A stretch of 64,000 nt of DNA, taken from IMG/VR virus record IMGVR_UViG_2799112320_000004, positions 1 to 64,000 of that record; one strand, 5' to 3'. Shown piece by piece: positions 13,879 through 64,000 of this stretch (positions within the stretch are counted from its first letter, which is position 1; every line of letters starts with the position of its first letter). The stretch comes from a virus (taxonomy: Duplodnaviria; Caudoviricetes). The translations under genes were made by a program, and so were the position numbers. Below the pieces are notes generated by a model. The model had not been told where the DNA came from and made no database searches. It saw nothing but the letters and a program-made list of their open reading frames with translations.

Positions 13879-13966
13879 TGACAATTTGCCGTCGGGTTCG
13901 CGGGTGCGACACAAGGCGGCGGACGGACCTGGACGCAACCAGGGGCAAGTAAGAAGGAACAAGAAA

Positions 13967-15016
13967 ATGCAGGTAAACGGAACACGGGTACTCACTTACG
14001 CCGATTTCGTCAAGGGCCTCGATCCGAAGGGCAACTTCGTCCACCGGATCGTCGAGCTCGTGGCGAAAAAGGTTGAGATGCTCGACGACATGACGGTCAT
14101 CGAGGCGAACGACGGTTCGTCCCTCTCGACGACCGTGCGCACGGAGACGCCGAAGCCGGTTTGGACGACCTACTACGGCGGCATCCCCTCGAACAAGGGC
14201 AGTAAGGCCAAGATCAAGGTCGGCTCCGGCATGATGGGCACCAAGGTCACGGTCGCGAAGAAGCTCTACGACGACTCCAAGGACAAGGACGCCGTGCTCG
14301 AGGACGAGATTCGCGCCAACATCACCGGCATGAAGAACGAGCTGGCGAGCGCGCTTGTCTACGGCCGACTGGCCGACAACCCGCTCGGGATCAACGGCCT
14401 CTTCAAGCACTACGACAAGTACGGCAGCGAGACGGCCGACGACACGGAGTCGGCGCACTACGTCTTCAACGCGCTCGGCATCACGGGCAACACCGGCGCC
14501 AAGTCGAAGCTCGGCTCCATCGCGCTCGTCGGATGGTCGCCGAACACGATCACCGCGTTCCACCCCGAGGGCCACGGCACGGGCGGCATCGAGAAGAGCG
14601 ACAAGCGCGTCGTGGACATCGCCGATCCGGACAAGGGCGGCGACGCGACGTACGAGGCTTATCTCCAGTACCTCTACTGGAAGCTCGGCCTCGCGGTCCG
14701 CGACTACCGCTACGGCGGGCGCATCTGCAACATCCAGCGCGACCTGATGCTCACCAGGGGCTACGAGGGCAGCTACGTCGAGCTGATCGACCGCCTGTCG
14801 CAGCGCGTCCTGGACGACGACGTGAAGCAGGCCTACTACATGGACAAGCTCATGTGGGAGAACGTCTGCGTCATGTTCTCGCGCCTCACGCGCGGCAACG
14901 CGATCAAGTTCGAGCACATCGAAGGCCGCAAGGAGAAGCGCCTTTACGGCATCCCCGTGCGCATCATGGATCCGATGAAGACCAACGAGGCGGAGGTCAC
15001 CGCCTTCTCGGCCTAA
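13967..15016 (+). CDS. Major capsid protein (BPP-1 Bbp17-like)
   Basis: Start re-assigned to ATG 13967 (AAGGA RBS); IEANDG, GIPSNKG and KLGLAVRDYRYGGRICNI motifs; 349 aa. Confidence 0.9.
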   Translation: MQVNGTRVLTYADFVKGLDPKGNFVHRIVELVAKKVEMLDDMTVIEANDGSSLSTTVRTETPKPVWTTYYGGIPSNKGSKAKIKVGSGMMGTKVTVAKKLYDDSKDKDAVLEDEIRANITGMKNELASALVYGRLADNPLGINGLFKHYDKYGSETADDTESAHYVFNALGITGNTGAKSKLGSIALVGWSPNTITAFHPEGHGTGGIEKSDKRVVDIADPDKGGDATYEAYLQYLYWKLGLAVRDYRYGGRICNIQRDLMLTRGYEGSYVELIDRLSQRVLDDDVKQAYYMDKLMWENVCVMFSRLTRGNAIKFEHIEGRKEKRLYGIPVRIMDPMKTNEAEVTAFSA

Positions 15017-15061: not shown

Positions 15062-15508
15062 ATGCACGACAAGACTCTGTTTTTCTTCGACCGCAAGGCC
15101 CTCGCCGCCGCCAACAACACGGAGATCACCTCAAAGCTGATCGACATGCGCTTCAACGGCGACGACGTGGACGGGCGGCTGTTCATCAACGCGCAGCTCG
15201 GCGCGGCGCCCAGCGAGGGCGTCGTCCGGTTCAAGGTGCTCACGTCCTACGACGGCAGCTCCTGGGTTGACCTCCTGACGGTCAACAACTCGGGCGCGAC
15301 GCTGTACAAGGGCCGTCTCCCGCGCGGCATCCGCCGCTACCTGAAGGCGGAGGCCAAGGTCACGACCGAGCTGGGCGAGGCGAACACCGTGTTCGCGGAG
15401 ATCACCGACGGGATCGAGAACGGCCTGGACATGAACCTTGTCCAGAAGTCGTCCGAGACTGACCAGGCTGCGGCCGGCGATGCCGTCCGCGCGGTGGTCG
15501 AGGCGTAA
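15062..15508 (+). CDS. Capsid cement/decoration protein (Bbp16-like)
   Basis: 148 aa after the capsid gene; MHDKTLFFFD..., SKLIDM, LPRGIRRYLK jelly-roll-type motifs. Confidence 0.7.
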   Translation: MHDKTLFFFDRKALAAANNTEITSKLIDMRFNGDDVDGRLFINAQLGAAPSEGVVRFKVLTSYDGSSWVDLLTVNNSGATLYKGRLPRGIRRYLKAEAKVTTELGEANTVFAEITDGIENGLDMNLVQKSSETDQAAAGDAVRAVVEA

Positions 15509-15515
15509 TCCTCCC

Positions 15516-15559
15516 GCCCCTCCTCCGTGCGTTCTCCGTTTCTGGGGGAGGGGCATTTT
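15516..15559 (+). terminator. Possible intrinsic terminator after the capsid/cement genes
   Basis: GCCCCTCCTCC...GGGGGAGGGGC stem (one G-U pair) followed by ATTTT; the loop is long. Confidence 0.4.
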
Positions 15560-15574
15560 CCAACTTCCCAAGCA

Positions 15575-16006
15575 ATGGATCCAGACATGAAGATCATCTG
15601 CAAATCAGACACGCAGGTCTTCGGCTACGGCATCGTCTCGAAAGGAGAGGCGATCGAATGGCCGGACGGCAGGCCCTTCCCGCCGCACGTTCAGGGCAAC
15701 TTCAAGTCGGCCGACGGAAAGCCGCTGTGCAACGCGAGCCCGAAGCCGCCGGAAGCCGCCGGGGACAAGCCCCAGCAGCCGGAAGGCAACGGCGGAACGC
15801 GCGAGCCGACGGCCGAGGAAAAGGCTGCGGAGCAGGGGCGCGCCGAGAAGACCGCGATCGACGAACTCGTGAAGAGGACGGCCGCGCTCGGCAAGCAGAA
15901 GCTGATCGCCGCGCTCGACGCGTCCGGCGTCACATACTCGTCAAAGGCCACGTGCGAGGAGCTTGCAAAGGCCCTTCTCCGCTCGCAAGGCCAGGAAATC
16001 GACTGA
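15575..16006 (+). CDS. Phage protein with C-terminal HeH/LEM-like domain
   Basis: C-terminus LGKQKLIAALDASGVTYSSKATCEELAKALL; start uncertain (15575 or 15587). Confidence 0.6.
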   Translation: MDPDMKIICKSDTQVFGYGIVSKGEAIEWPDGRPFPPHVQGNFKSADGKPLCNASPKPPEAAGDKPQQPEGNGGTREPTAEEKAAEQGRAEKTAIDELVKRTAALGKQKLIAALDASGVTYSSKATCEELAKALLRSQGQEID

Positions 16007-16018
16007 CGGAGGCGTGAC

Positions 16019-16630
16019 ATGGCGAAGACGGTCAAGTTCGGGATCGACACGGCTCACTCCCGCCTCTGGATCGACGAGGGACGGCTTTTCCTTGGCACGT
16101 CCGCGAAGATCGAACTTCTGGACTGGGAGGTTGACGACACCGGCTACGTGCCGGTCGTGACCGTGTTCCTTCCCGGCTCGCCCGTCCCGCTCGCGCAGTC
16201 GTCCTACGCGGACGGCGCGCTGACGCTCGACCTCACCGGCGAGGAGTTGCGCAAGGCGTTCCACTCCTCGCCGGCGAGGCACCAGTTCACGGCATACCTG
16301 AACCAGAAGCTGCCCGGCGGATCGTGGAAGCCGGACGTGGAGGCCGTCGGCGAAGTCTGGATCGACTGGTCGCCCGAGGCGTTCAATACCGAGGCCGGCA
16401 CGGTCGCGACGATGCAGGGCCCGCCCGGCACGGACGGGCAGGACGGCAAGAGCGCCTACCAGCTAGCGGTCGAGAACGGCTACGCCGGAACGCTCCAGGA
16501 ATGGCTGGCGGCGATGGAGGTTGCGAACGCGCTGAAAGGCAAGACGTTCGAGTTCTCGACCGCCACCTCTGAAAAGATGGCGAACGGATTGAAGTTGATT
16601 TTCGAGGCACTGGGAGGAACGGTACTATGA
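16019..16630 (+). CDS. Virion structural protein with short collagen-like segment
   Basis: QGPPGTDGQDGKSAYQLAVENGYAGTLQEWL motif common in phage fibre/collar proteins. Confidence 0.7.
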   Translation: MAKTVKFGIDTAHSRLWIDEGRLFLGTSAKIELLDWEVDDTGYVPVVTVFLPGSPVPLAQSSYADGALTLDLTGEELRKAFHSSPARHQFTAYLNQKLPGGSWKPDVEAVGEVWIDWSPEAFNTEAGTVATMQGPPGTDGQDGKSAYQLAVENGYAGTLQEWLAAMEVANALKGKTFEFSTATSEKMANGLKLIFEALGGTVL

Positions 16631-18096
16631 AGCGCATCGCATTCCTTTTCGCGCTCGCGGCGTCCGCATCGGCTTTCGCGGCGAACGTGGCGAAGGCCAG
16701 GTTCGGCGACCTTCCGATGAACGCGCAGGTCGTCACGAACGTTGACTTCTCCGGCATCTCCATGTCGGAGGAGGATCCCTACTTCAACGCGTTCACGCAG
16801 CGGGGCGGCACCATGTACGGGCCGCTCAGGTTCTGGAACGGCATCGGAAACTACGACATGTCCACCGTCATCTCCTCCAACGGCGTGTCGTTCTGGAAAT
16901 TTGCGCCGGCTTCAGGCGGCGGCGGAATCTGGGCGAGCGGCAGCTTCGAATGGGGCGACCTGCTGACGAGCGAGAGCGATCCGAACGTCCCAGCATGGGC
17001 GAAGTCGTCAGTCAAGCCGTCCTACTCGTGGAGCGAGATCACCGGCAAGCCGTCCGGCCTCGACAACGCCGTGCCGTCCAGCCGCAAGGTGAACGGCAAG
17101 GCGCTATCGTCCGACATCACGCTTTCCGCGTCGGACGTGGGGGCGCCCTCGACGGGCATGTTCAACGCCTCGTCAAACCTCGCGTCCACGGCGGACAGCA
17201 AGGCCACAATGGCCATCGCATATCTTCAGGGCGACGACGCGAAGGTCGTTGTCACGAACTACGACTCGGCCGTCACGATACCGTCCATGAGCCTACAGCA
17301 GCGCATCGCCGACGGCGGATCGAACTACTGGAAAGTCGTCTGGAACGAAATGACGCGGTGGAACAGGTTCACTGGCGACGGCTTCGACTGGGCCGCATGG
17401 TGCGGCTTCGGCTGCTTCCGCACGAACGTCCTTGCGCAGCTCGACCAGAAGGCGGACCGCGCCTGGGGCTTCTACGAATCGCACACGGGCAACTACGCTC
17501 CGGACGGCTACGCGTGGATCAGCAGCCCGAAGATCGCCATCGCCGCCGGGCTTGCGTACCAGCGGACGATCACGTCGGAGGGGGCCGTGTGGGTGCTGGA
17601 GTCTAACGGGCTTGTCACGGAGACGGGCGGAAACATGACAAACGGATTCTTCCGCATCAGCGACGGAGAAAACAACACGCTCTTCGAGATCGTCAAGGGG
17701 AACAAGCGCACCGTCGGCGCGCAGGCCGGAAGCGTGACGACCGAAAGCGTCATGGGCATCTCGCACATGCACATCCTATACGCCGTCACGGGCGGCCATC
17801 CGACTATCAAGGTCTGCACCGACCTCACGACGGCGGACTGGAAGGCCGAGACGTCCGACGAATGCGTGGCGAACGTGAACTGGACTGGAGGGAGCGGGGC
17901 TTGGATTGCAGAGGTCTGGGGCAAGACGGCGCAGCCAAGAATGTTCGTGAACGCGGAGTACGAGGTAGGCGGCGAGACGTACATCAAGAACACGGTTCCG
18001 ATTTCGGCCGACGGCGGGATCCTCTGCACCGACGGGATCCACAAGGTGCGGCCGGTCTACAACAACGGCTCGATCACGTGGGAGGTCGTTCAGTGA
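16627..18096 (+). CDS. Tail-fibre-like protein with N-terminal signal peptide (envelope cassette gene 1)
   Basis: MKRIAFLFALAASASAFA signal peptide; fibre motifs ESDPNVPAWAK, KPSYSWSEITGKP, VPSSRKVNGKALSSDITLSASDVGA; C-terminal half aligns with 62558..64000. Confidence 0.7.
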   Translation: MKRIAFLFALAASASAFAANVAKARFGDLPMNAQVVTNVDFSGISMSEEDPYFNAFTQRGGTMYGPLRFWNGIGNYDMSTVISSNGVSFWKFAPASGGGGIWASGSFEWGDLLTSESDPNVPAWAKSSVKPSYSWSEITGKPSGLDNAVPSSRKVNGKALSSDITLSASDVGAPSTGMFNASSNLASTADSKATMAIAYLQGDDAKVVVTNYDSAVTIPSMSLQQRIADGGSNYWKVVWNEMTRWNRFTGDGFDWAAWCGFGCFRTNVLAQLDQKADRAWGFYESHTGNYAPDGYAWISSPKIAIAAGLAYQRTITSEGAVWVLESNGLVTETGGNMTNGFFRISDGENNTLFEIVKGNKRTVGAQAGSVTTESVMGISHMHILYAVTGGHPTIKVCTDLTTADWKAETSDECVANVNWTGGSGAWIAEVWGKTAQPRMFVNAEYEVGGETYIKNTVPISADGGILCTDGIHKVRPVYNNGSITWEVVQ

Positions 18097-18740
18097 GGGA
18101 GCTGATCGCAGGATTCCAGGCGTCGCTGATCTGGATTTGCGTCGTCCTGCTGCTGTCGCTCGCGGGAATCGCCGCGTGCCCGATCGTGCGGGACGCGCTT
18201 GCGAAGCTCCGCTCGATGTTCGGCAAGTCGAAGGTTCAGGGCATACTTGTCGCGGCGGCGATCGTCGGCGCGGTCATGTACGGCGGGAGCAAGGGAACCC
18301 GCAGCGTCAGCTTCCCGCGCACGGACATCGAAGTCGCGTACCTGGTGGACGCCGGATCGTATGTCACGAACGACCTGGTGCACGTCGCCTTCGCCTCGTA
18401 CCTGATCCCGCAGGACGCGCCCATAATCCTCTCGTACTGGCCCGACGGCTCGACGAACGAGGACGAGATCGTGACGGCCCTGGCGGCGCCGCTCGCCGAC
18501 TTCCCGAACCCGCTTGACTTCGCCTTCGAGAACGCTATCTCGAACAGGTGGTACTGCTACACGACGTGGACGCCTGGCCCGGCCGTACACACGAACGGAG
18601 TATGGCAGACGATTTGGATGATGGACAGGTGCGACAACTTCTACATGATCCCCATCCGGACATGGATCGAAGCGGACGGCGAAGTCATTGCTCCGCCGGT
18701 GTTCACCCTGCCAGAAGAAGGAGAACCAGACGATGAATAA
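18093..18740 (+). CDS. Two-TM membrane-anchored protein (cassette gene 2)
   Basis: GTG start overlapping the upstream TGA; two hydrophobic N-terminal helices; AGSYVTNDLVHVA and TPGPAVHTNGVWQ shared with 62007..62561. Confidence 0.7.
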   Translation: MRELIAGFQASLIWICVVLLLSLAGIAACPIVRDALAKLRSMFGKSKVQGILVAAAIVGAVMYGGSKGTRSVSFPRTDIEVAYLVDAGSYVTNDLVHVAFASYLIPQDAPIILSYWPDGSTNEDEIVTALAAPLADFPNPLDFAFENAISNRWYCYTTWTPGPAVHTNGVWQTIWMMDRCDNFYMIPIRTWIEADGEVIAPPVFTLPEEGEPDDE

Positions 18741-19224
18741 GACAGCAGCACTCTTCGCGCTCGCCCTGGCGGCGGCGATCGCTCCGCTCGAACTCCGCCC
18801 GGACGGCGACCTCTCGCAGGTCGTCGCCCAGACGCTCTTCTCGGACGGCAGCACGAACACGTGGACGCAAGCCGACCTGATCGCCGCCTTGCAACTTGTG
18901 AACCGCAAGTACCACCGCGACTGCGAGAGGGGGGACGGACGCAGGGCGTGGCACGGGAGGCTGATGCGGCAGACGGTCGTGACGAACGGCACGACGCTCG
19001 TCAAGACGGAGACGCACGAGGACGGGACCGAGTTCACGTTCGAGGCGCAGTACGTTCCGCCGTCCGTCGCCGTCTCGAACGCGAACGCGCGCCTGAAGAC
19101 CACGATGTCGAGGGGCGTGCCGAAGGCGTTGGCCGAGGCGCGGCTCCGGCGAGCGGAGGAAAAGGCAAGCGTGTCGAACGTCACGGTGACGGTCACGGCG
19201 GGTGCCGGAACGGAGGTCAAATGA
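18733..19224 (+). CDS. Signal-peptide protein (cassette gene 3)
   Basis: MNKTAALFALALAAAIA; DGSTNTWTQADL.AAL.L.NR.Y.RD...GR..WHG shared with 61489..62010. Confidence 0.7.
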   Translation: MNKTAALFALALAAAIAPLELRPDGDLSQVVAQTLFSDGSTNTWTQADLIAALQLVNRKYHRDCERGDGRRAWHGRLMRQTVVTNGTTLVKTETHEDGTEFTFEAQYVPPSVAVSNANARLKTTMSRGVPKALAEARLRRAEEKASVSNVTVTVTAGAGTEVK

Positions 19225-19466
19225 CGGATGAAGAAAGACTGAAGGCGCTTGCCGAAGAGGCAAGATACGAGGCGCGTTTGTGCAGAGGTCAGTTTTTCAA
19301 CTGCTGCTATCAGAACGACGGCATAAACAAGATGCTGTTGAACCACGCAACGCTTTTCCGCCAACTGGCAAGGGCACTAGTCGGCCCTGACGATGAAGAC
19401 AAGGCCTGGGATAACCTTTCGCAAAGAATAGCGGAAAAGTTTGCCGGAGGGGAAAACAATGGATGA
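19221..19466 (+). CDS. Hypothetical 81-aa protein (present only in element 1)
   Basis: GGAGG RBS, ATGA overlap with neighbours, AT-richer than flanks. Confidence 0.6.
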   Translation: MTDEERLKALAEEARYEARLCRGQFFNCCYQNDGINKMLLNHATLFRQLARALVGPDDEDKAWDNLSQRIAEKFAGGENNG

Positions 19467-19707
19467 AGTCACGAGAGACATGGTTAAGGCCCAGCTGAAG
19501 TCAGCAAAGACCAAGGAAGCGTTGAACGACGCCATGGTCAGCGCGATGATCGCCGTCGTGGACTGCCAGTGCAAGACGGGGATGCGAGTCAAGCGCCAGG
19601 GGCTCATCCTCGCCGGCATCGGCCTGTTACTGCTTCTGACGCTTCTGTGCGGCAACGACAGCGCGCTGAAGTTGCTGTGCTTCTGGAGATCGGGAGGGAC
19701 GCCGTGA
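19459..19707 (+). CDS. 82-aa single-TM protein, holin/antiholin candidate (cassette gene 4)
   Basis: C-terminal TM LILAGIGLLLLLTLLC; 71/82 residues identical to 61241..61489. Confidence 0.75.
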   Translation: MDEVTRDMVKAQLKSAKTKEALNDAMVSAMIAVVDCQCKTGMRVKRQGLILAGIGLLLLLTLLCGNDSALKLLCFWRSGGTP

Positions 19708-20150
19708 AGACGAAGTGGGCGACATGCGCCGCGCCGATCATCAGGCTTCCCATCAGCACGCTGGGAGAGTCTGAGGCGGTGCTGATGGAAGACTGGAACC
19801 TCGACGATGTGATCGGATTCTCGTTTTGCGTTCCGGCCGGAACCAGGACGGACGGCGCGAGCATCCCGAGGTTCCTCTGGAGGATTTGCGGCCATCCCCT
19901 CATGGCCCCGCGCGTGTATGCGGCCACACTCCACGACTGGCTGTACGGCGAATTCGACCTGACGGCCGCCGCGCTGCATGAAAGCCGGTACTTCAACACG
20001 GCCCTTCCCACGGACCTTACCCGCAAGGAGGCCGACGAATGCTACCGCGCCCTCCTGCTGCACTTTGGCGTCGCCGCGTGGCGGGCCGACATCGAATACT
20101 ACGCGCTCCGGCTGTTCGGATCGCGACACTACAAAGGAAAAAGCAAATGA
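19704..20150 (+). CDS. DUF1353 family protein (cassette gene 5)
   Basis: TDGASIPRFLW, AATLHDWLY, RKEADECYRALL..FGV motifs; GTG start overlapping the upstream stop. Confidence 0.85.
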   Translation: MKTKWATCAAPIIRLPISTLGESEAVLMEDWNLDDVIGFSFCVPAGTRTDGASIPRFLWRICGHPLMAPRVYAATLHDWLYGEFDLTAAALHESRYFNTALPTDLTRKEADECYRALLLHFGVAAWRADIEYYALRLFGSRHYKGKSK

Positions 20151-20797
20151 AGAAGATCATCTGGTTTTGCGCGGCCGCCGCGCTTGCAGCGTCCGCATTG
20201 GCCGAATACGATGCCGTCCAGCTGGAAGCCGGCGACAACCTGGTACCGGCACCGTGCTCCGGCGTGATGCTCCATGCCATCAGCACGAACGCGAGCGGCA
20301 CCGTCGTCCTGAAGAAGGTGACTGCGCTCTCGATCACGTGGAACGAGACGCGGACGGTGACGAACATCATCTACACGACCGCGTGGAGCAACCTCACGCA
20401 CACCGTCACGAACGACATGGTGAGCGCGTGGCGCACGAACGCCGTCACGGTCGCGGGGACGACGAACACGGTGGTCGAGACCAACTTCCTCGCACGGGCG
20501 ATGAACGCCATTCCGTCCGTCTATCCCTGGCCCGACCTGCTGATCACGACGAACAAGCTGACCGGCGTCGAGGTGTACACGAACATCCCGTACAAGGTAG
20601 AGTCGTCGCGTCGCGTGATGCCCTACACGATCCAGCGCCGGGCGTCGAAGTACGTCACGAACGACGTCTGCAACGTGACGCTGGCCAGCGGATTCAAGAC
20701 GAACGCCGTCAGCGGCGTGTTCGCGCCCGGCGACTACATCTACGCGAGCGGCACGGCGTTCAACGGCGGACGCGTGCAGCTGATCATAGAGAAGTGA
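20147..20797 (+). CDS. Secreted Thr/Asn-rich protein (cassette gene 6)
   Basis: MKKIIWFCAAAALAASALA signal peptide; N- and C-termini (STNASGTVVLKKVT; PGDYIYASGTAFNGGRVQLIIEK) shared with 59418..60203. Confidence 0.75.
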   Translation: MKKIIWFCAAAALAASALAEYDAVQLEAGDNLVPAPCSGVMLHAISTNASGTVVLKKVTALSITWNETRTVTNIIYTTAWSNLTHTVTNDMVSAWRTNAVTVAGTTNTVVETNFLARAMNAIPSVYPWPDLLITTNKLTGVEVYTNIPYKVESSRRVMPYTIQRRASKYVTNDVCNVTLASGFKTNAVSGVFAPGDYIYASGTAFNGGRVQLIIEK

Positions 20798-20841
20798 CTT
20801 CCGGCAATTCCGCCGGGGAAAACAAACAGGAGTAAAAAGCA

Positions 20842-21345
20842 ATGAAGAAACTGATATTGGCGTGTGTCGTTGCCGTGGCCCTCTCGGGGTGCATGTTCAT
20901 CGTCGCGGGCTGCCGTACGGTGTGCGTCGAGAACGACAAGGAGAAAGGCTGGTCCGTGACCTGCCGCTCCAACATGATGAAGTCCGAGCTGGACAACATG
21001 AAGGCGTCCATAAATCCCGACGGGACTATCTCGTTCGAGATGGGAGGCCTCGCTTCTAGCCCGTCCGAGGAGTTCGCGAAGAGCCTGATGACGATGACAT
21101 ACATCGCGCGCCTTGCCGCTGCCATCGCGTCGCCAACTGCGGCCGGCGTCCCGCTCAACGAATCCGCCGCCGACCCACAGGCGATAGCTGCGATCCTTGC
21201 CGCCCAGGCCGCCGCAAAGGAAACGACGGTAAAGGCGAAGAGCGCGGCCGCCGTGAGCAAGATCGAAGCCAAGGCGAAGGCCGCGTGCCCGACCGGCACG
21301 TGCTCCGACGGAACATGTTCCGACTGCCAGGCGACGGCTAAGTAG
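20842..21345 (+). CDS. Lipoprotein with Cys-rich tail, spanin candidate (cassette gene 7)
   Basis: Lipobox-like LSGC and VAGC; internal hydrophobic helix; tail CPTGTCSDGTCSDC; paralog at 60217..60720. Confidence 0.7.
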   Translation: MKKLILACVVAVALSGCMFIVAGCRTVCVENDKEKGWSVTCRSNMMKSELDNMKASINPDGTISFEMGGLASSPSEEFAKSLMTMTYIARLAAAIASPTAAGVPLNESAADPQAIAAILAAQAAAKETTVKAKSAAAVSKIEAKAKAACPTGTCSDGTCSDCQATAK

Positions 21346-21372
21346 GGATCAGCACGACGGAAGGAGCGCCCC

Positions 21373-22398
21373 ATGACCATAAACGCCGACAATATCGCAG
21401 TCTGCCAGGAGGCTCTGTACCTTCTGCGGCAGGACGTGGGGCTTCCGTCCGTGGAGGCGGCGCCGACGGACACGTCGCTCGAATGGCAGAAGAGCAAGAT
21501 CGCGTTCGACACGGCCGTCTCCGAGGTCTGGAACGCGCACGACTGGAACGCCGAGCTGAAGCTGACGGGCGCAGACCTGACGGCGGCGCCCGCGAGCGTC
21601 GCGAAATGGACTCCCGCCATGCGCTCCGCGCTCGCCTACTGCGTGGCGTCGGAGCTGGCGATCCCGCTTGCGGGCCGCGTCCAGGACCTCCAGAACTGGC
21701 GCGCGCTCTACGCGGAGAAGCTGACGCGCGCCCGAGTCCTCTCGCTGGAGGCCGAGCGCAAGGCCGTCACGAACCAGACACACAACGACATTCTGGCTCT
21801 GCTCGTGCCGCACTTCGATCCGGCCGACGGTCACCTGCCGCGCTCGATCAAGGTGCTGACAGACCGGGCCGACGCGCTCGCGGACTCCGCGCGCTACGCC
21901 GTCCTCGCCGACCACGCCTGGAACTTCGCCCGCGCAGAGGAGCGTGTCGCGTCGTGCGACGTCCCGCACGGCTGCGGGCCGTACCCGTTCGCGTCCGAGG
22001 TCCCGCCCTGCTGCGCTCACCTGGAGGCCGTGTTCACGCACGGCGGGAAGCTGGACGACTGGAAGGTGTACGAGGGCCGGATCATCGTCGCCCGCGAGCC
22101 GGTCGTCTCGATCGTCTTCACGCGCGACGACAAGCGGCCCGAGAAATGGCCGCCGCTCGTACGCCGCGCGTTCCTGTTCCGTCTCGCCGCAGACGTGGCG
22201 CAGACCGAGGTGCCGAAGCTCTTCGAGGTGCTGGAGGCGAAGGCGGCCGAAGCGCTCGTGGAGGCAAGGGCCCGAGACGCGCGCGAGTCGAACACGCCGC
22301 GCGACGCATGGGGACGCAACTACCACGTGGACGCCATGCGCGGCATCCGTCCGGGCGGGCACCTCCCGCCGCACCGCCCTTTCCACGGCCTCATCTAG
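21373..22398 (+). CDS. Tail tubular protein A / adaptor (T7 gp11-like), apparently two-domain
   Basis: IAVCQEALYLL, HAWNFA, W.VYEGRII, WPPLVRRAFLFRLAADVA motifs; position before the nozzle gene. Confidence 0.75.
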   Translation: MTINADNIAVCQEALYLLRQDVGLPSVEAAPTDTSLEWQKSKIAFDTAVSEVWNAHDWNAELKLTGADLTAAPASVAKWTPAMRSALAYCVASELAIPLAGRVQDLQNWRALYAEKLTRARVLSLEAERKAVTNQTHNDILALLVPHFDPADGHLPRSIKVLTDRADALADSARYAVLADHAWNFARAEERVASCDVPHGCGPYPFASEVPPCCAHLEAVFTHGGKLDDWKVYEGRIIVAREPVVSIVFTRDDKRPEKWPPLVRRAFLFRLAADVAQTEVPKLFEVLEAKAAEALVEARARDARESNTPRDAWGRNYHVDAMRGIRPGGHLPPHRPFHGLI

Positions 22399-59417: not shown

Positions 59418-60203
59418 CTACCTCTCCAGGATCAGCTGCACCTTGCCGCCGTCGAACGCCGTGCCCTCGCCGATTAGCAAGTCGCCCGGGAATATCGCCG
59501 TGTCCAGCGCGTTCGTCTTGTAGCCGTTTGTGAGCGTCGCGTTCCAGAGCGTGTTCGTGACCGCGAGGCTTGCGACGTGCCGCGTGCGCTCCGTGCGCAC
59601 TTCCACCGTGTCCACCACCTGGTACGTCACGTTCGACGAGAGCGCGTGCGTGACCGACTGCGACGTGTAGAGCAGGTCTTTCGTCGGCCATCCCGCCACG
59701 AACGGCTTCGCGCCCCACGCCTGCCCCACCATGTTGCTCACGATCCCCGTCCTGACGAGCGGCACCGCGTTCGTGAGCGCCGTCACGTTCGTGACCGTGT
59801 GCGTGAGGTTCGAGAGGCCCGTCGTGGCGCTCCACACCGTGCCCGTGACGACCGTCGCCACGTTCGTGACATACGTCACGCCCATCACGCTGCCCGTCGC
59901 CACGGCGTAGGCGTTCGTGGTCCATGCCCTCCACAGCGTCTCGGTGGCCGTGTACTGGACGTTGCTCGTCGCCGGCCTGTACGTGTAGTTCGTCACGACC
60001 GCCTCCTCGAACCACTCCACGTCGAGCGGCGTCACGCGCTTCACCGTGACCGTGCCCGTCGCGTTCGTGGAGACCGCCTGCGCGGCGACGGCGCGCGCCG
60101 CCTCGAGCGGCGCCGTCTCGCCCTTCCCCACCTCGACGCCCACGATCGCCGCGTGCGCGGCGCACGCCGCGGCCAGCATTGCCATCGTTGTAAGTTTCTT
60201 CAT
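59418..60203 (-). CDS. Secreted Thr/Asn-rich protein (paralog of 20147..20797)
   Basis: MKKLTTMAMLAAACAAHA signal peptide; STNATGTVTVKRVT and PGDLLIGEGTAFDGGKVQLILER termini match the element 1 paralog. Confidence 0.8.
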   Translation of the reverse strand: MKKLTTMAMLAAACAAHAAIVGVEVGKGETAPLEAARAVAAQAVSTNATGTVTVKRVTPLDVEWFEEAVVTNYTYRPATSNVQYTATETLWRAWTTNAYAVATGSVMGVTYVTNVATVVTGTVWSATTGLSNLTHTVTNVTALTNAVPLVRTGIVSNMVGQAWGAKPFVAGWPTKDLLYTSQSVTHALSSNVTYQVVDTVEVRTERTRHVASLAVTNTLWNATLTNGYKTNALDTAIFPGDLLIGEGTAFDGGKVQLILER

Positions 60204-60216
60204 TTTGCCTTCCTCC

Positions 60217-60720
60217 CTACTTCACCGTGCAGTCTTCGCACGTCCCGTCCGTGCATTTTCCCGTCGCGCACTTGGCCGATGCCGCCGTCCCCTTCTCTGC
60301 CGCCTTCGCCGCGATCTTTGCCGTCTCCGCGTTCGACGCCGCGTTCACGAGCGCGGCCGTGTCCGCCGCGTTCGCTGCGCCCTTGTCGAGCGGAACGCTC
60401 GCCACGGCCGGATTGAACACCGTCCCCGCCAGCCTTCCGAGCACCGACACGCCGTACCAGAACTCCGCTGCGTTTTTCGCCAGCTGCTCCGACGTGTCGC
60501 TCTTGTAGCCGTTGAACTCGACCTCCACGCCTTCTGCCGACTTCTTCGCGCGGAACGAATCCACGTCACGCTTCAGCCAGTGCGACGTAGACGTGACCGA
60601 CCATCCTCCGTCGGCATTCACCTCGACCTTCGTCGAACTGCATCCCGCGCACATGAACACGCACCCTCCCAGGCTCGCCAACATGCCGCCCAATGCAGCA
60701 ATCTTGATCATCTTCTTCAT
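60217..60720 (-). CDS. Lipoprotein with Cys-rich tail (paralog of 20842..21345)
   Basis: Start ATG 60720 (GGAG RBS); LGGC/CAGC lipobox-like motifs; GWSVT; tail CATGKCTDGTCEDC; same 167-aa length as the paralog. Confidence 0.75.
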   Translation of the reverse strand: MKKMIKIAALGGMLASLGGCVFMCAGCSSTKVEVNADGGWSVTSTSHWLKRDVDSFRAKKSAEGVEVEFNGYKSDTSEQLAKNAAEFWYGVSVLGRLAGTVFNPAVASVPLDKGAANAADTAALVNAASNAETAKIAAKAAEKGTAASAKCATGKCTDGTCEDCTVK

Positions 60721-60794: not shown

Positions 60795-61244
60795 TCAAAG
60801 ACTCCGCCCGCTTTCCGGGCACCCGCCCGAAATCTCCTTTCCCTCCGGCGCCTTGTCGACGAAGTGCCGGCCGCCGAACGCGCGCAGCGCGTAGTACTCC
60901 ACTCCCGCCGCGAACGCCCCTATGCCGAAATGGCGCAGCAGCGCGCGGTAGATCCTGTCCGCCTCCTTGCGCGTGATCCCCAGGCGCCAGGCGTTGCGGT
61001 AGAGCCAGTCGTGCGCGAGCGCAGCGTAGACTCGCGGTGCCTGCAATGGATGCCCGCAGACACGCCACAGCACTCTGGGGATGGAGGCACCGTCCGTGGT
61101 CGTGCCTGCGGGTATCACGATGTCGAAGAATTCCTCCACGCGGTAGAGCGACCACGGCTCCATGAGAACCGCTTCCTTCTCTCCGAGCGTGCTTATCGGC
61201 AGCCGGATGATCGGCGCCGCGCAGTCTGCCCATTCCGTCCTCAC
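60795..61244 (-). CDS. DUF1353 family protein (paralog of 19704..20150)
   Basis: TDGASIPRVLWRVCGHPL, AALAHDWLY, RKEADRIYRALL.HFGI. Confidence 0.85.
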   Translation of the reverse strand: MRTEWADCAAPIIRLPISTLGEKEAVLMEPWSLYRVEEFFDIVIPAGTTTDGASIPRVLWRVCGHPLQAPRVYAALAHDWLYRNAWRLGITRKEADRIYRALLRHFGIGAFAAGVEYYALRAFGGRHFVDKAPEGKEISGGCPESGRSL

Positions 61245-61489
61245 GACGCGCCTCCCGAATGCCAGAAGCTGAGCAGCTTCATCGCCGTATCGTTCCCGAA
61301 GAGCAGAGCCACCAGCAGCAGAAGGCCGATCCCCGCGACGATGAGCCCCTGCCGTTTTACGCGCATGCCTGTTTTACACTGACAGTCAACGACAGCGATC
61401 ATCGCGCTCACCATCGCGTCATTCAGGGCCTCCGTGGTCTTTGCCGACTTGAGCTGCGCCTTGACCATATCACGCGTTACTTCGTCCAT
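61241..61489 (-). CDS. 82-aa single-TM protein, holin/antiholin candidate (paralog of 19459..19707)
   Basis: MDEVTRDMVKAQLKSAKT...RQGLIVAGIGLLLLVALLFG; 71/82 residues identical to the element 1 copy. Confidence 0.8.
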   Translation of the reverse strand: MDEVTRDMVKAQLKSAKTTEALNDAMVSAMIAVVDCQCKTGMRVKRQGLIVAGIGLLLLVALLFGNDTAMKLLSFWHSGGAS

Positions 61490-62010
61490 CACTGACCTCC
61501 CGGCCCGACGATGACCGTCACCTCGTTCGTCTCGCCCGCGATTCTCTGCGCCGCGCGAAGAGCGGCGAGATCTGGCGGAAGATTCGCACTCTCCCACGCC
61601 GCGCGCGCCTCGTCGGCCCTGCGTTTCGCCTCGGCCGCGGCCTTCGCTGCCGCCTCCGGATCCTGCCTGATCCGCTTGCGGTAGCGCACCATGCGATTCG
61701 TCGCCACGAATCCGTCCTGGTAGAGCTGCACGACGATCATCTGAGCCGCGCCGTTCGCGTTCGTGACGCCGGTCGGCAACAGGTACTCGCCGATCCGCTC
61801 GCCGTGCCACTTCTGGCGGCCGGCGTCCGTTCCCTGGTCGCGCCAGTACATGCGGTTCATCAGGCCGAGCGCGGCCTGTAAATCCGCCTGCGTCCACGTG
61901 TTCGTCGACCCATCGGCGCGGATGGTCGCGGCGACGATCGGCTCGTCTGCCTGCGTGACGGCGCAAATTGCGGCGACTGCGGCGACGGTGAGGAACAGTA
62001 TCTTTTTCAT
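61489..62010 (-). CDS. Signal-peptide protein (paralog of 18733..19224)
   Basis: MKKILFLTVAAVAAICAVTQA; DGSTNTWTQADLQAALGLMNRMYWRD...GRQKWHG. Confidence 0.75.
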   Translation of the reverse strand: MKKILFLTVAAVAAICAVTQADEPIVAATIRADGSTNTWTQADLQAALGLMNRMYWRDQGTDAGRQKWHGERIGEYLLPTGVTNANGAAQMIVVQLYQDGFVATNRMVRYRKRIRQDPEAAAKAAAEAKRRADEARAAWESANLPPDLAALRAAQRIAGETNEVTVIVGPGGQ

Positions 62011-62561
62011 TGCGTCTCCTTCTTGATGACCTTGGTGTTCGGGAACGCGCTCTTGCCCGTGCCCGGTATCGTAAAGCCTTTCATTTGCCAAACGCCGTTT
62101 GTGTGGACGGTCGGCGCGGGCGTGAAGTTCGCAGCGACCATCACGTCGTAGTTCGTGGCGTTGACGAGCGCGTAGTCGTATGGATGATCCGCGAAAGTGA
62201 GATGTGGCGTGAGGCGCACCCAGTCGGTCGCGTTCGTCAAATCGACCTGCCGCGCGTAGACGAGGATCTCCGTGTCGTCCGGAAGAAGCTGCGTCCGCTT
62301 GGCAAGCGCGACATGCGCCACGTCGTTCGTGAGGTATGAGCCGGCGTTCATGATATACGGGTCGGACACCGTCACCGTCCCCTTTCGGCCGAACATGGTA
62401 CAGGCAACAGCAAGCGCGAGCATGGCGAGGGTCGCACGGCGCATGCGACGCTTCGCGCGCATGGCGGCCTTGCCCATGTTCGCGGCCGTCACGATCAACG
62501 CGATCACCATGAGCACGGCGACGCCGGCATACATCACGGCGTTCTGGATTGCCTGCATCAT
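62007..62561 (-). CDS. Two-TM membrane-anchored protein (paralog of 18093..18740)
   Basis: Start ATG 62561; two hydrophobic helices separated by a basic loop; AGSYLTNDVAHVA and TPAPTVHTNGVWQ. Confidence 0.75.
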   Translation of the reverse strand: MMQAIQNAVMYAGVAVLMVIALIVTAANMGKAAMRAKRRMRRATLAMLALAVACTMFGRKGTVTVSDPYIMNAGSYLTNDVAHVALAKRTQLLPDDTEILVYARQVDLTNATDWVRLTPHLTFADHPYDYALVNATNYDVMVAANFTPAPTVHTNGVWQMKGFTIPGTGKSAFPNTKVIKKETQ

Positions 62562-64000
62562 TGCTTTGTCCAAATCAGGTTGTTGCCGGAGACGGTCGGC
62601 ACGAACTTCACGCCGTTCACCCAGATGCCGGCCGAGATGTCTGTGGTGGCGCTGTTGCGGATCACGACGCCGCCTTCCTGAAGGAACGAAAAGCGCAGGA
62701 ACAGCGACGGCGGGCGCGTGCCGTTGAAGTCGAGCGTCAGCACCCAGGCGCCCGTGCCGCCCGTCCAGTTGAAGTCCCATGTCTGCGGTGCGCTGGTCTC
62801 ATCGCCCCAGCCTACATCGTCAAGCGCATAACGCCAGAAGCACGATGGATGGTCCTGGGACACGACCGGCACGGGAACCGTGACTGATGTCTCGCCCACG
62901 GTGATGCCCGCGGCGTTCGCGCCGACGACCTGGGCGTCGGTTTTCTCGATCGAAAAGACCGGCGTTCCGTCATCGGCCGAAATCCGAAAATATGCGTTTG
63001 TGTCAGGGTTGAAGTCGGCGGCCATGCCGTTCGAGGATAGCACCCACACCTCGCCGTAGGTGTCCACCACCTTGGCGTACTCAAGCCCGCCGGCGATGAC
63101 GGTCGTGGGCGTGGAGATCCACGTGGTGTTAGACGGCGCATCTGCGCCGAGGCCGGAGGTGGTTCTGGACCAGGCGCGCGGTGCGGCGTTCGTGAGCGCG
63201 GCGTCCGTGTACTCGTTCGCCCGTGCCAGCGTCCGCGTCAGTCCGTTCATCTCCGACCACACCGTGACGTACTCATTCGACTCGTTGAGCTGCATGAGCC
63301 GGAGCTCCGGCGCGTGGACCTGCGAGTTATAGTTCGTCACTTCCGCCACGACGTTCGATCCGGAATAAAGCCGATAGACGAGCGTCGATTCGGTTCTGAG
63401 GTCCGCTATGTCGCTTTGGATTGATGCCGTGTCTGGGAGGTCATTCGTCAAGGCGACGCGGCCGATAAGATTCGTCACAAGAATGTCGTACCGTGTCCAG
63501 TTTGCAACAAGCTCATCCCCCATTGAAAAGTGAAGTGTTGTCGCGTTCGGTTCGCCGCCAAGATCCGTAGGCGTTCCACCAGGCTCCAGAAACCATCCGT
63601 CCGTGGGGTACATTTCTCCGTCTGCCCCATGCCAATAAGGGCCGACCCAAGAGCTGATATTTTCTGGTGTGAATCCTGTGTAGCTTGACAAACTCCATCC
63701 GGCGTTACGCGCAACTTCCCACACGCACCCCGTCGCGTCCGTGAAGCGAGACGGCGTGCCGTACACGGTCGCACGCGCAACCGCCCCCGTTGATGCGAAC
63801 GCGCCGAGCGCGCGGTCGGTGTAGTTGGTTGCCGATCGTGCGATCTGCCACACATCCGAGGCCGTCACATCGCCATGTCCGCCGCCTGTCTGGTCCACGA
63901 GCCGCGTGGCTGCGAACACCGTGCCCATCTCACCCCACTGGTTGAAACGCTCGTCCACCTCGCCCATCACGACATTCTTCGCCGTCGCCATGTCGTTCGT
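62558..64000 (-). CDS. Fibre-like protein, 5'-partial (paralog of 16627..18096)
   Basis: Frame open to the window edge; C-terminal half aligns with the element 1 protein (VTNY.S.V, RAW, WIS.P...IA.GL.Y, VWVL.SNG, FRIS, NWTGG.GAW). Confidence 0.75.
   Translation of the reverse strand, partial: TNDMATAKNVVMGEVDERFNQWGEMGTVFAATRLVDQTGGGHGDVTASDVWQIARSATNYTDRALGAFASTGAVARATVYGTPSRFTDATGCVWEVARNAGWSLSSYTGFTPENISSWVGPYWHGADGEMYPTDGWFLEPGGTPTDLGGEPNATTLHFSMGDELVANWTRYDILVTNLIGRVALTNDLPDTASIQSDIADLRTESTLVYRLYSGSNVVAEVTNYNSQVHAPELRLMQLNESNEYVTVWSEMNGLTRTLARANEYTDAALTNAAPRAWSRTTSGLGADAPSNTTWISTPTTVIAGGLEYAKVVDTYGEVWVLSSNGMAADFNPDTNAYFRISADDGTPVFSIEKTDAQVVGANAAGITVGETSVTVPVPVVSQDHPSCFWRYALDDVGWGDETSAPQTWDFNWTGGTGAWVLTLDFNGTRPPSLFLRFSFLQEGGVVIRNSATTDISAGIWVNGVKFVPTVSGNNLIWTKQ

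What the first reader, a model, noticed from the sequence alone, without database searches (positions are those of the whole stretch)
16627..21345. Conserved 7-gene secreted/membrane 'envelope cassette' shared by two otherwise unlike phages
Seen: between the capsid and tail genes, element 1 carries fibre-like(SP), 2TM, SP, 82-aa TM, DUF1353, SP Thr/Asn-rich and lipoprotein genes. Element 2 carries clear paralogs of all seven (59418-64000) with the last two swapped, even though its neck, tail and ejection genes differ. Six of the seven products have a signal peptide, lipobox or TM helix, which is unusual for a podovirus late operon because virion parts normally assemble in the cytoplasm. Inference: this is a lineage-specific module acting in the cell envelope. 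It could be a non-canonical lysis/egress system, an exported fibre/appendage apparatus, or a lysogen surface or superinfection-exclusion structure.
Basis: partly seen in the sequence, partly recalled or inferred. Interest (0 to 1): 0.82.

Follow-up and report, generated by a model that had tools for sequence, protein, structure and literature searches.

The report
Phage envelope cassette with phospholipase core
Two unrelated prophages of a cattle-gut bacterium share a block of late genes whose products go to the cell envelope; its best-conserved part (small membrane protein, phospholipase A2, lipoprotein) most likely helps burst the host, and it travels with a tail-fibre-like protein that is unexpectedly exported across the inner membrane.

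Summary
All seven gene pairs are paralogs (blastp E 1e-17 to 1e-58, 31-87% identity) and the last two are swapped. The flanking tail genes are unrelated. Hydrophobic export signals occur in 11 of 15 cassette genes against 0 of 39 other prophage genes.

Corrections:
- Element 1 has an extra 81-aa gene (19221-19466).
- Gene 16019-16630 belongs to the fibre.
- Element 2's fibre gene runs out of the window (868 aa) and has an internal membrane anchor, not a signal peptide.

The block is two sub-modules.

1. An invariant trio: an 82-aa N-in membrane protein, a DUF1353 phospholipase A2 with its H-D...D residues intact, and a lipoprotein. In 9 of 10 cultured phages examined, DUF1353 lies beside an annotated wall-degrading (or, in one, 'peptidase') gene, so this trio is most likely a lysis or egress unit. 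Neither prophage has a recognisable endolysin.

2. An exported or membrane-spanning fibre-like protein, a membrane protein with a predicted membrane-helix hairpin and FN3-like domain, and a periplasmic protein with no fold match. Their role is unresolved.

The family is confined to rumen and gut Lentisphaerae and Kiritimatiellae phages. This scan had already found the trio on other DNA; the exported fibre is the new element here. Function is inferred, not shown.

The parts
16019..16630 (+). g0, 203 aa, no export signal. N-terminal fibre part with a collagen-like and tail-fibre motif. Its C-terminal amphipathic motif (..IFEALGGTV) matches the segment that precedes the TM helix in single-chain homologs.
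   Evidence: PHROG tail/fibre local hits; alignment with fused homologs; the same C-terminus in L003 and L004
16627..18096 (+). g1, 489 aa. Signal-peptide-like N-terminus, then tail-fibre repeat motifs and a conserved 300-aa C-terminal domain.
   Evidence: family of 490 proteins, of which 93 of the best 120 have an SP-like N-terminus
18093..18740 (+). g2, 215 aa. Two-helix membrane hairpin plus an FN3-like beta-sandwich predicted to lie outside the cytoplasm.
   Evidence: AF2 pLDDT 89.6; FN3 matches at Z 5-6, about 78 residues aligned, rmsd about 3 A; 343 cluster representatives; longer homologs add LamG, PKD or DUF285 domains
18733..19224 (+). g3, 163 aa. Signal peptide plus a small alpha/beta domain and a helical hairpin, with no known fold match.
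   Evidence: 517 homologs; AF2 pLDDT 78; no PDB or BFVD match, best Z 4.9 and partial
19221..19466 (+). g3b, 81 aa. Soluble Cys-rich accessory gene, present in element 1 and in L010 only.
   Evidence: skipped in variant contigs
19459..19707 (+). g4, 82 aa. About 45 aa of cytoplasmic N-domain, one TM helix (46-66), short outside tail. Holin-like protein or phospholipase anchor/regulator.
   Evidence: dN/dS 0.045 at saturated dS
19704..20150 (+). g5, 148 aa. DUF1353 phospholipase A2-type enzyme, no export signal. H77, D78, Y81 and D111 are conserved.
   Evidence: Pfam PF07087, 66 bits against a cut-off of 22.5; invariant residues in 15 sequences; TtaP biochemistry (PMC11525133)
20147..20797 (+). 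g6, 216 aa. Signal peptide plus a Thr/Asn-rich, probably beta-rich protein (judged from sequence; not folded). Its position varies among relatives.
20842..21345 (+). g7, 167 aa. Lipoprotein with tandem lipobox-like motifs, an Ala-rich stretch read as helical (from sequence only) and a C-terminal CxxGxCxDGxCxDC motif.
62558..64000 (-). g1', C-terminal 480 aa of an 868-aa protein that starts 1164 bases beyond the window. It has a 50-aa N-terminal tail, a TM anchor at 52-71, a stretch that looks like coiled coil (from sequence only) and the shared C-terminal domain.
62007..62561 (-). g2', 184 aa. Two TM helices plus the conserved domain.
61489..62010 (-). g3', 173 aa. Signal peptide plus the conserved periplasmic protein.
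61241..61489 (-). g4', 82 aa, 87% identical to g4.
60795..61244 (-). g5', 149 aa, DUF1353 phospholipase A2-type.
60217..60720 (-). g7', 167 aa lipoprotein.
59418..60203 (-). g6', 261 aa. Signal peptide plus a Thr/Asn-rich protein.

Best explanation
The stretch is a late-transcribed, host-envelope module made of two sub-modules. They are exchanged together among otherwise unrelated temperate phages of rumen and gut Lentisphaerae and Kiritimatiellae.

Sub-module B is g4, g5 and the lipoprotein g7. I read it as a phospholipase-based lysis or egress unit.
- g4 is a bitopic N-in membrane protein, either holin-like or a membrane anchor/regulator.
- g5 is a signal-less DUF1353 phospholipase A2 that stays in the cytoplasm until the inner membrane is breached.
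- The lipoprotein sits in the outer membrane.
- At the end of the cycle the enzyme hydrolyses membrane phospholipids. This breaks the outer membrane, and perhaps the inner one too. That is the step done by spanins in classical phages.

Sub-module A is g0/g1, g2 and g3, with g6 loosely attached.
- It places a trimeric-fibre-like protein outside the inner membrane. The fibre is secreted in element 1 and anchored by a TM helix to a cytoplasmic N-domain in element 2 and many relatives.
- It comes with an FN3-type membrane protein and a small periplasmic partner.
- I take these to form a periplasmic scaffold or tether that works with B.

What is shown: paralogy, synteny, export signals, PLA2 family membership and conserved catalytic residues, and the lysis-cassette context of DUF1353 in cultured phages.

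What is inferred: timing, topology, enzymatic activity, the outer-membrane target, and any contact between the parts.
For: (1) g5 matches PF07087 at 66 bits against a cut-off of 22.5. H77, D78, Y81 and D111 are invariant in 15 DUF1353 proteins, six of them from cultured phages. The founding family member, TtaP, is a proven PLA2 whose H70, D71 and D85 are catalytic (PMC11525133).

(2) In 9 of 10 cultured phages examined, the DUF1353 gene lies within three genes of an annotated wall-degrading gene (in Funu2 the annotation says only 'peptidase'). Examples are Bas80, Cygsa01, Caulobacter DMCA, Cobetia Carin1, Fusobacterium phiRTG5 and Funu2, Nitratiruptor NrS-3, phiPMW and Paraglaciecola GD1. In three of them a lipoprotein gene is directly adjacent.

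(3) g4 is followed by a PLA2-like gene in all 13 related loci that extend past g4. Where DUF1353 is not detected (L011, L014, L018), the slot holds a family that keeps the HD and AD motifs. That family aligns to DUF1353 by hhalign at 75% probability, E 2.6e-5. By my lipobox heuristic a lipoprotein gene follows in most of these loci.

(4) g4 and g5 are under strong purifying selection (dN/dS 0.045 and 0.18 with dS saturated). They are translationally coupled through a GTGA overlap.

(5) Export signals are confined to the cassette: 11 of 15 genes against 0 of 39.

(6) No wall hydrolase domain was found in the ORFs scanned from either prophage (nearly all of the larger ones) with Pfam, or in the cassette genes with NCBIfam and PHROGs. 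Six-frame searches for four endolysin families found nothing on the contig. The host does make peptidoglycan, with five PBP genes. No other lysis cassette was found.

(7) No plus-strand terminator-like site was found between the capsid and tail genes, and promoter-like sites were not above chance, so the region is probably one late transcription unit.
Against: - No wall-cutting enzyme is identified, so the cassette as read cannot by itself explain lysis of a bacterium that has peptidoglycan.
- g4 is far more conserved than holins usually are, lacks the charged C-terminal tail typical of holins, and matches no holin family.
- g7 is about 140 aa when mature and not proline-rich, unlike known o-spanins.
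- The cassette sits inside the tail gene cluster in all three types of structural module, which fits a fibre or adsorption role at least as well.
- g2 is an FN3-type binding domain and g3 has no fold match, so neither adds evidence for a lytic function.
- TtaP itself gave no lysis or secretion phenotype in Salmonella.
- No activity, topology or interaction was tested here.
Confidence: 0.5

Rival explanations
1. Periplasmic maturation of the virion's adsorption apparatus. g0/g1 is the true tail fibre. Its lineage-specific N-terminal part docks on the tail in the cytoplasm, while the rest is threaded through the inner membrane and folds in the periplasm. g2 and g3 act as its chaperones or accessory binding subunits, and g6 is a post-lysis decoration protein. 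The phospholipase with g4 then frees the membrane-tethered fibres and virions.
For: - g0 and g1 carry tail-fibre motifs.
- The N-terminal part varies with the tail type: a g0 domain in element-1-type phages and the MDERxDxGEFYPGG tail in element-2-type phages. The C-terminal domain is shared, as expected for a docking domain.
- The genes lie among tail genes in three unrelated structural modules.
- g2 and g3 sit where fibre chaperones usually sit.
- Long g2 homologs carry LamG, PKD or DUF285 binding domains.
- I found no other separate fibre gene in either element.
Against: - I know of no precedent for Sec-exported fibres in tailed phages.
- The shared C-terminal domain is conserved (50-99% identity in the 120 best-scoring of 490 proteins), whereas receptor-binding tips normally vary.
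- In the siphovirus-type loci g1 has only a cleavable signal peptide and no docking domain.
- g9 of element 1 has a very large extra N-terminal region that could be the receptor binder.
Confidence: 0.2
2. Endolysin-free lysis. The very conserved cytoplasmic domain of g4 blocks a conserved host cell-wall synthesis enzyme, as the single-gene lysis proteins of small phages do. The wall then fails during growth while the phospholipase destroys the membranes.
For: - No endolysin was found in either prophage, although the host has peptidoglycan genes.
- g4 is conserved at 70% identity or more across the 120 best-scoring of 164 protein clusters, with dN/dS 0.045. That fits binding to a conserved partner.
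Against: - To my knowledge such inhibitors are known only from small ssDNA and ssRNA phages.
- The conserved partner may simply be g5.
- In cultured phages DUF1353 accompanies ordinary endolysins.
- An unrecognised wall hydrolase among g1, g3, g6 or elsewhere is not excluded.
Confidence: 0.1
3. Superinfection exclusion or surface conversion. The exported fibre-like protein, the FN3 membrane protein and the lipoprotein mask or modify the phage receptor. This protects infected cells and stops progeny from sticking to debris, as the T5 Llp and Cor lipoproteins do.
For: - The lipoprotein slot is swapped between near-identical phages. L003 is 96-100% identical to element 1 in g0, g2, g4, g5 and g8 (91-92% in g1 and g3, 87% in g6), yet carries a different lipoprotein.
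- The domains in g1 and g2 are of binding type.
Against: - The genes are translationally coupled inside the late structural operon, with no promoter-like site above chance.
- The Cor PHROG match is only to the signal peptide (E 0.05).
- This reading does not explain the invariant membrane-protein and phospholipase pair.
Confidence: 0.1
4. No common function. Unrelated accessory genes have accumulated at a permissive site of the late operon.
For: - g6 and the lipoprotein move or are replaced among relatives, and g3b comes and goes.
Against: - The order g1-g2-g3-g4-PLA2 recurs in two podovirus types and a siphovirus-like type, and in several bovine and other animal gut runs.
- The gene overlaps indicate coupled translation.
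- Export signals are confined to this block.
Confidence: 0.05

Closest known systems
TtaP / DUF1353 (Pfam PF07087), the phospholipase A2 of the Salmonella typhoid-toxin islet (PMC11525133)
   Same: g5 and g5' are clear family members. They keep the His-Asp pair and the downstream Asp. Like TtaP they have no signal peptide. TtaP is encoded beside a phage-type muramidase (TtsA).
   Different: g5 has a clade-specific conserved N-terminal 30 aa, and element 1 has a 16-aa insertion after the HD motif. It is coupled to a dedicated 82-aa membrane protein. No muramidase is nearby. Activity was not tested.
Lysis cassettes of cultured phages that contain a DUF1353 gene (E. coli phage Bas80, Caulobacter DMCA, Cobetia Carin1, Nitratiruptor NrS-3, Pseudomonas phiPMW and Cygsa01, Fusobacterium phiRTG5)
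   Same: The DUF1353 gene lies next to small membrane proteins, and in three of them next to a lipoprotein gene.
   Different: Those cassettes include an annotated endolysin and this one does not. In those records DUF1353 is mostly labelled 'tail assembly chaperone' or hypothetical. I found no published lysis role for it in the searched library.
Lambda-type two-component spanins (Rz/Rz1)
   Same: An N-in membrane-anchored periplasmic protein that looks like coiled coil from its sequence (g1' of element 2) is paired with an outer-membrane lipoprotein encoded close by. The proposed task is the same: breaching the outer membrane.
   Different: g1 is 490-870 aa with tail-fibre motifs and a large globular end, and in element 1 it is secreted rather than anchored. 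g7 is about 140 aa and not proline-rich. There is no family match. An enzyme is present instead of, or besides, a fusion machine.
Putative patatin-based lytic cassette of Wolbachia phage WO (PMC9203015)
   Same: A small holin-like membrane protein stands next to a phospholipase A2-type enzyme, next to the tail module, in phages without a classical endolysin.
   Different: The lipase is of a different fold (patatin, not DUF1353). That host has no detectable peptidoglycan, whereas this host has PBP genes. The WO cassette is itself unproven.
T5 Llp and Cor-type phage lipoproteins
   Same: A phage lipoprotein gene near fibre genes that is variable between close relatives.
   Different: There is no sequence relation beyond the signal peptide (PHROG E 0.05). 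Here the gene is coupled to a phospholipase and sits in the late operon.

Membership tests
DUF1353 / TtaP-class phospholipase A2 (g5, g5') | Match to Pfam PF07087 above the gathering score | tested here: met
   66.2 bits against a cut-off of 22.5, E 2e-18. Both copies were found in the genome at 65.7 bits.
DUF1353 / TtaP-class phospholipase A2 (g5, g5') | Catalytic His with adjacent Asp, plus a second Asp about 15 residues on (TtaP H70, D71, D85) | tested here: met
   H77, D78 and D111 (and Y81) are invariant in 15 aligned DUF1353 proteins. Equivalence to the TtaP residues rests on the motif and spacing given in the paper; TtaP itself was not in the alignment.
DUF1353 / TtaP-class phospholipase A2 (g5, g5') | sn-2 phospholipid hydrolysis | not testable with these tools
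   Needs an enzyme assay.
Canonical Gram-negative lysis cassette (holin, endolysin, spanin) | A peptidoglycan hydrolase gene | tested here: not met
   None was found by Pfam in the ORFs scanned from both prophages, or by PHROGs and NCBIfam in the cassette genes. Six-frame searches for SLT, Phage_lysozyme, Amidase_2 and Peptidase_M15_4 found none on the contig. The g2 and g3 models are not hydrolase-like. g1 and g6 were not folded.
Canonical Gram-negative lysis cassette (holin, endolysin, spanin) | A holin: small membrane protein with at least one TM helix and a charged C-terminal tail, beside the lytic enzyme | tested here: inconclusive
   g4 is 82 aa with one TM helix and is coupled to g5. 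Its C-terminal tail is short, it matches no holin family, and its conservation is atypical.
Canonical Gram-negative lysis cassette (holin, endolysin, spanin) | A spanin pair: N-in membrane protein with periplasmic coiled coil, plus a small outer-membrane lipoprotein | tested here: inconclusive
   g1' has the topology and g7 has a lipobox.
Virion tail fibre (g0, g1) | Tail-fibre sequence motifs | tested here: met
   Local PHROG hits to tail fibre and tail protein families, E 5e-7 to 8e-11, each over only 30-60 residues.
Virion tail fibre (g0, g1) | Made and assembled in the cytoplasm (no export signal) | tested here: not met
   A signal-peptide-like or TM segment is present in 98 of the 120 closest family members. 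Several of the remaining 22 that I inspected show a weaker hydrophobic segment followed by the same motif.
Cor / Llp superinfection-exclusion lipoproteins (g7) | Sequence membership | tested here: not met
   phrog_1119 matches at E 0.05 over residues 1-22 only, which is the signal peptide.
Patatin-type phage WO lytic cassette | A patatin-fold phospholipase | tested here: not met
   There is no patatin domain. The lipase here is DUF1353.

The most novel reading that the evidence does not exclude
The tail fibre of these phages is a membrane-spanning protein. A lineage-specific N-terminal part docks on the tail in the cytoplasm. The receptor-binding part is exported by Sec and matures in the periplasm with its own partners (g2, g3). 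The dedicated membrane protein plus phospholipase A2 then dissolve the membrane to free fibre-bearing virions. This would be, to my knowledge, the first case of periplasmic maturation of the adsorption apparatus of a tailed phage, linked to a lipase-based exit.
Probability: 0.18. Interest if true: 0.9.

Novelty: new variant of a known kind. Interest (0 to 1): 0.6.

Why it matters
Three points would matter if the reading holds.

1. A membrane-protein, phospholipase A2 and lipoprotein trio may be a lysis component that databases mislabel. PHROGs and many GenBank records call DUF1353 a 'tail assembly chaperone'. If the trio breaches membranes, it would be a further way for phages to break the outer membrane, alongside spanins, and would also bear on what TtaP does in the typhoid-toxin islet.

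2. These prophages lyse, or leave, a bacterium that has peptidoglycan without any recognisable endolysin. That makes them a good place to look for a new wall-degrading enzyme or an endolysin-independent exit.

3. A family of about 500 fibre-like proteins carries a conserved signal peptide or membrane anchor. This contradicts the expectation that tailed-phage fibres assemble in the cytoplasm, and it can be tested directly by virion proteomics and topology reporters.

The hosts (rumen Lentisphaerae and Kiritimatiellae) have almost no studied phages.

Tried and rejected
- **GenBank phages.** tblastn with g4 and g2 gave no match.
- **ESM Atlas.** Searches with g2 and g3 gave no usable hit and no model.
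- **PDB sequence searches.** Profiles of g2 and g3, both fibre proteins, and the variant PLA2-like family gave nothing below E 0.3.
- **g3 fold.** Foldseek against PDB and BFVD and VIA-align wide gave no credible match (best Z 4.9 over 44 residues). The idea that g3 is a lysozyme-like endolysin gained no support.
- **g2 fold.** Only FN3-type matches appeared, so g2 is not an enzyme candidate.
- **NCBIfam on the cassette.** Nothing was found.
- **Pfam on genes that fill the slots in relatives.** Nothing informative was found.
- **g0 against the g1 family.** blastp found no g0-like N-domain among the 120 closest g1 homologs. The link between g0 and the fused forms rests on the short pre-TM motif only.
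- **Programmed frameshift joining g0 and g1.** I saw no slippery heptamer at the ATGA overlap in the junction sequences, so I dropped the idea.
- **Sample of 400 other genomes of the phylum.** No g4 was found in those searched. They are a sample, so this shows the gene is uncommon, not absent.
- **RNA evidence.** One poly-A gut RNA library holds short contigs, 90-99% alike, on g0, g1, g6 and g8. DNA carry-over cannot be excluded and contigs cannot rank expression, so I do not use this as evidence.
- **Chronic, non-lytic release reported for deep-sea Lentisphaerae phages (PMC11361711).** I read this as context only. It concerns other phages and gives no gene-level link.

Full report
**Setting.** The window is bases 15993-79992 of a 109-kb contig from a 5.2-Mb draft genome. 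Contig and genome both have 64% G+C.

Two prophages converge on an integrase gene at 42028-43149. Element 1 reads on the + strand:
- DnaN, primase, large terminase, a T7-type portal and a major capsid protein at 13886-15016
- the cassette
- a phrog_394 tail protein, a 1550-aa nozzle-like tail protein and a 3847-aa polyvalent protein

Element 2 reads on the - strand and has tail genes that match no PHROG.

A g4 homolog is named 'Victivallales bacterium' by its source. Related loci come from Lentisphaerae and Kiritimatiellae MAGs and from rumen genomes. Near-identical DNA occurs in bovine-gut metagenomes of several studies.

**The observation.** I set the gene starts from the junction sequences. 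Most neighbours overlap by ATGA or GTGA.

All seven pairs are paralogs, at 31-87% identity and E 1e-17 to 1e-58. The last two genes are swapped. The next tail genes give no hit between the elements.

A hydrophobicity scan finds early hydrophobic segments in 11 of 15 cassette genes and in none of 39 other genes of the two prophages (p 1.4e-8). The signals are conserved across the wider families.

Three corrections are needed:
- Element 1 has an extra 81-aa soluble gene, g3b, at 19221-19466. Variant contigs in a bovine-gut run skip it.
- The fibre gene of element 2 continues beyond the window. It encodes 868 aa with a 50-aa N-terminal tail and a TM anchor at residues 52-71, followed by a stretch that looks like coiled coil.
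- Gene g0 (16019-16630) belongs to the fibre, as explained below.

**Does the cassette travel as a unit?** A profile of g4 retrieved 12 IMG/VR loci and 5 loci from genomes. tblastn with all cassette proteins and ORF maps show the following:
- The order g1-g2-g3-g4-g5 recurs in phages with element-1-type tails, with element-2-type tails, and in a third type whose flanking ORFs I read as a siphovirus-like tail module (they were not scanned against any family library).
- g4 is always followed by a PLA2-like gene.
- A lipoprotein gene follows in most loci, but it is often a different lipoprotein.
- g6 often lies next to the gene I take to be the capsid gene.
- g4-g5 also occur without g1-g3 (L006, L008, L013, L021).

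The block is therefore two sub-modules that usually travel together.

**The conserved core.** g5 is a clear DUF1353 protein. The only characterised member of that family, TtaP of the typhoid-toxin islet, is a phospholipase A2. It is distantly related to group XIV enzymes, and H70, D71 and D85 are needed for catalysis (PMC11525133).

In an alignment of 15 DUF1353 proteins, H77, D78, Y81 and D111 of g5 are invariant. Where tblastn did not find g5 (L011, L014, L018), the slot holds a family unknown to Pfam. That family keeps the HD and AD motifs and aligns to the DUF1353 profile by hhalign at 75% probability, E 2.6e-5.

g4 is 82 aa. It has a hydrophilic N-terminal 45 aa, basic residues just before one TM helix, and a short tail, which predicts N-in, C-out. 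Its family has 164 clusters; all 120 listed are at least 70% identical and of the same length. Between the two elements dN/dS is 0.045 at saturated synonymous sites, and 0.18 for g5. g4 matches no Pfam, PHROG or NCBIfam family.

**Context of DUF1353 in cultured phages.** tblastn with g5 finds 56 GenBank phage records. I looked at ten of them.
- *E. coli phage Bas80:* endolysin, holin, Rz-like spanin, then DUF1353.
- *Pseudomonas Cygsa01 and phiPMW:* DUF1353 abuts the endolysin or lysozyme gene.
- *Caulobacter DMCA:* M15 peptidase, an 88-aa lipoprotein, then DUF1353.
- *Cobetia Carin1:* a three-TM protein, an amidase, a lipoprotein, then DUF1353.
- *Fusobacterium phiRTG5:* endolysin, a TM protein, DUF1353, then holin.
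- *Fusobacterium Funu2:* a 'peptidase', then DUF1353.
- *Nitratiruptor NrS-3:* DUF1353, a lipoprotein, a TM protein, then lysozyme.
- *Paraglaciecola GD1:* an amidase, then a gene annotated 'phospholipase'.
- *One Vibrio phage:* no annotated lysis gene nearby.

The usual label 'tail assembly chaperone' (phrog_1158) is therefore probably wrong. DUF1353 looks like a lysis-cassette accessory, often paired with a lipoprotein.

I found no paper in the searched library that states this. A comparable but unproven idea exists for the patatin plus holin-like cassette of phage WO (PMC9203015).

This scan had already reached the same reading on other DNA, including Kiritimatiellae and Lentisphaerae phages. 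I treat that as agreement, not as evidence.

**The missing endolysin.** The host has five PBP transpeptidase genes, so it makes peptidoglycan.
- Pfam scans of nearly all larger ORFs of both prophages found no wall hydrolase. PHROG and NCBIfam scans of the cassette genes found none either.
- Six-frame searches for SLT, Phage_lysozyme, Amidase_2 and Peptidase_M15_4 found none on this contig.

Three explanations remain. An unrecognised hydrolase may be present (g1 C-domain, g3 and g6 are the untested candidates). Host autolysins may be used. Or the exit may not need one.

**The exported fibre and its partners.** g0 and g1 carry short tail-fibre motifs. The 300-aa C-terminal domain of g1 defines a family of 490 proteins.

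Of the 120 closest, 93 start with a signal-peptide-like segment and 5 have a strong internal TM segment. Several of the other 22 that I inspected show a weaker hydrophobic segment followed by the same motif, AP(F/L)xD...VVTN.

In single-chain forms, an N-terminal domain of 50-170 aa is joined to this TM helix through an amphipathic motif (..MRxAIxxIxxxLGxTV). The C-terminus of g0 in element 1, L003 and L004 ends in exactly this motif (..IFEALGGTV). g1 then starts with MKR and the hydrophobic segment.

So g0 plus g1 is a stable split of one membrane-spanning protein. Basic residues lie before the helix, which predicts that the N-domain is inside and the fibre outside. The N-terminal part differs with the tail type, whereas the C-terminal domain is shared.

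g2 folds with high confidence (pLDDT 89.6) into a two-helix membrane hairpin and a beta-sandwich. The sandwich matches FN3 domains at Z 5-6, with about 78 residues aligned at rmsd about 3 A. The family has 343 cluster representatives, and longer members add LamG, PKD or DUF285 domains.

g3 has 517 homologs with E at most 0.001; all 120 listed are about 160-240 aa. It folds at pLDDT 78 into a small alpha/beta domain plus a helical hairpin, with no credible match in PDB or BFVD.

None of these looks like an enzyme.

**Interpretation.** I commit, at about 0.5, to this reading. The block is a host-envelope module whose invariant core (g4, PLA2, lipoprotein) acts in lysis or egress by hydrolysing membrane phospholipids, most plausibly at the outer-membrane step. 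The fibre, g2 and g3 form a periplasmic structure that works with it.

A plausible control, which is my inference only, is that a signal-less and probably calcium-dependent PLA2 stays inert in the cytoplasm until g4 or another lesion opens the inner membrane.

The main rival, at about 0.2, is that g0/g1 is the true virion fibre, matured across the membrane with g2 and g3 as partners. It explains the tail-type-specific N-domains and the position among tail genes better than my reading does. It has no precedent I know of, and it conflicts with the conserved C-terminal domain.

Endolysin-free lysis through a g4 that blocks wall synthesis, superinfection exclusion, and a chance cluster are less likely.

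**Limits.**
- Export is predicted by heuristics and family conservation only.
- g1, g6 and g7 were not folded, because the fold cap was two.
- No interaction could be predicted.
- No experiment supports any activity.

Noticed in passing
window 19202-19459: Contigs of a bovine-gut run join 19202 to 19459 with 12 other letters between, skipping the 81-aa gene g3b. This small Cys-rich gene is therefore an insertion/deletion variant in the natural population, as it is between elements 1 and 2.
   Followed up: partly
L011:10255-10728, L014:10345-10782, L018:8351-8791: A family unknown to Pfam fills the DUF1353 slot after g4 in three relatives. It is about 145 aa, with invariant NGIGPE, HD, DGT and KYAW motifs. 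By hhalign it looks like a distant DUF1353 relative (75% probability).
   Followed up: partly
window 22408-27060: The nozzle-like tail protein of element 1 (phrog_376 on residues 1101-1408) has about 1100 extra N-terminal residues with repeated GGTF-type motifs. From the sequence alone this looks like a beta-helix and could be the receptor binder or a depolymerase.
   Followed up: no
window 30498-42041 and 43492-53103: Each prophage encodes a giant polyvalent protein (3847 and 3203 aa). They carry LPD23, ddrB-ParB, LPD3 and SprT-like domains, or ART-PolyVal and MuF_C domains. Neither shows a wall hydrolase domain.
   Followed up: no
window 20842-21345 and 60217-60720: Both g7 lipoproteins have two lipobox-like motifs in tandem (for example LSGC then VAGC). 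Both end in a conserved four-Cys motif, CxxGxCxDGxCxDC.
   Followed up: no
L018 and L020 (contig CAMKJU010000001.1, 31.5-47.8 kb and 82.4-98.7 kb): A Lentisphaerae MAG contig holds two copies of the g1-g4 block about 51 kb apart. Their tblastn results are identical. This could be two related prophages or an assembly repeat.
   Followed up: no
whole genome G000: A six-frame search found no SLT-family lytic transglycosylase and no Phage_lysozyme or Peptidase_M15_4 domain anywhere in this 95%-complete genome. The genome has five PBP genes.
   Followed up: no
window 15063-22042: A poly-A gut RNA library holds short contigs, 90-99% alike, on a capsid-adjacent gene and on g0, g1, g6 and g8. This is a weak hint that relatives of these late genes are transcribed in vivo. 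DNA carry-over is not excluded.
   Followed up: partly
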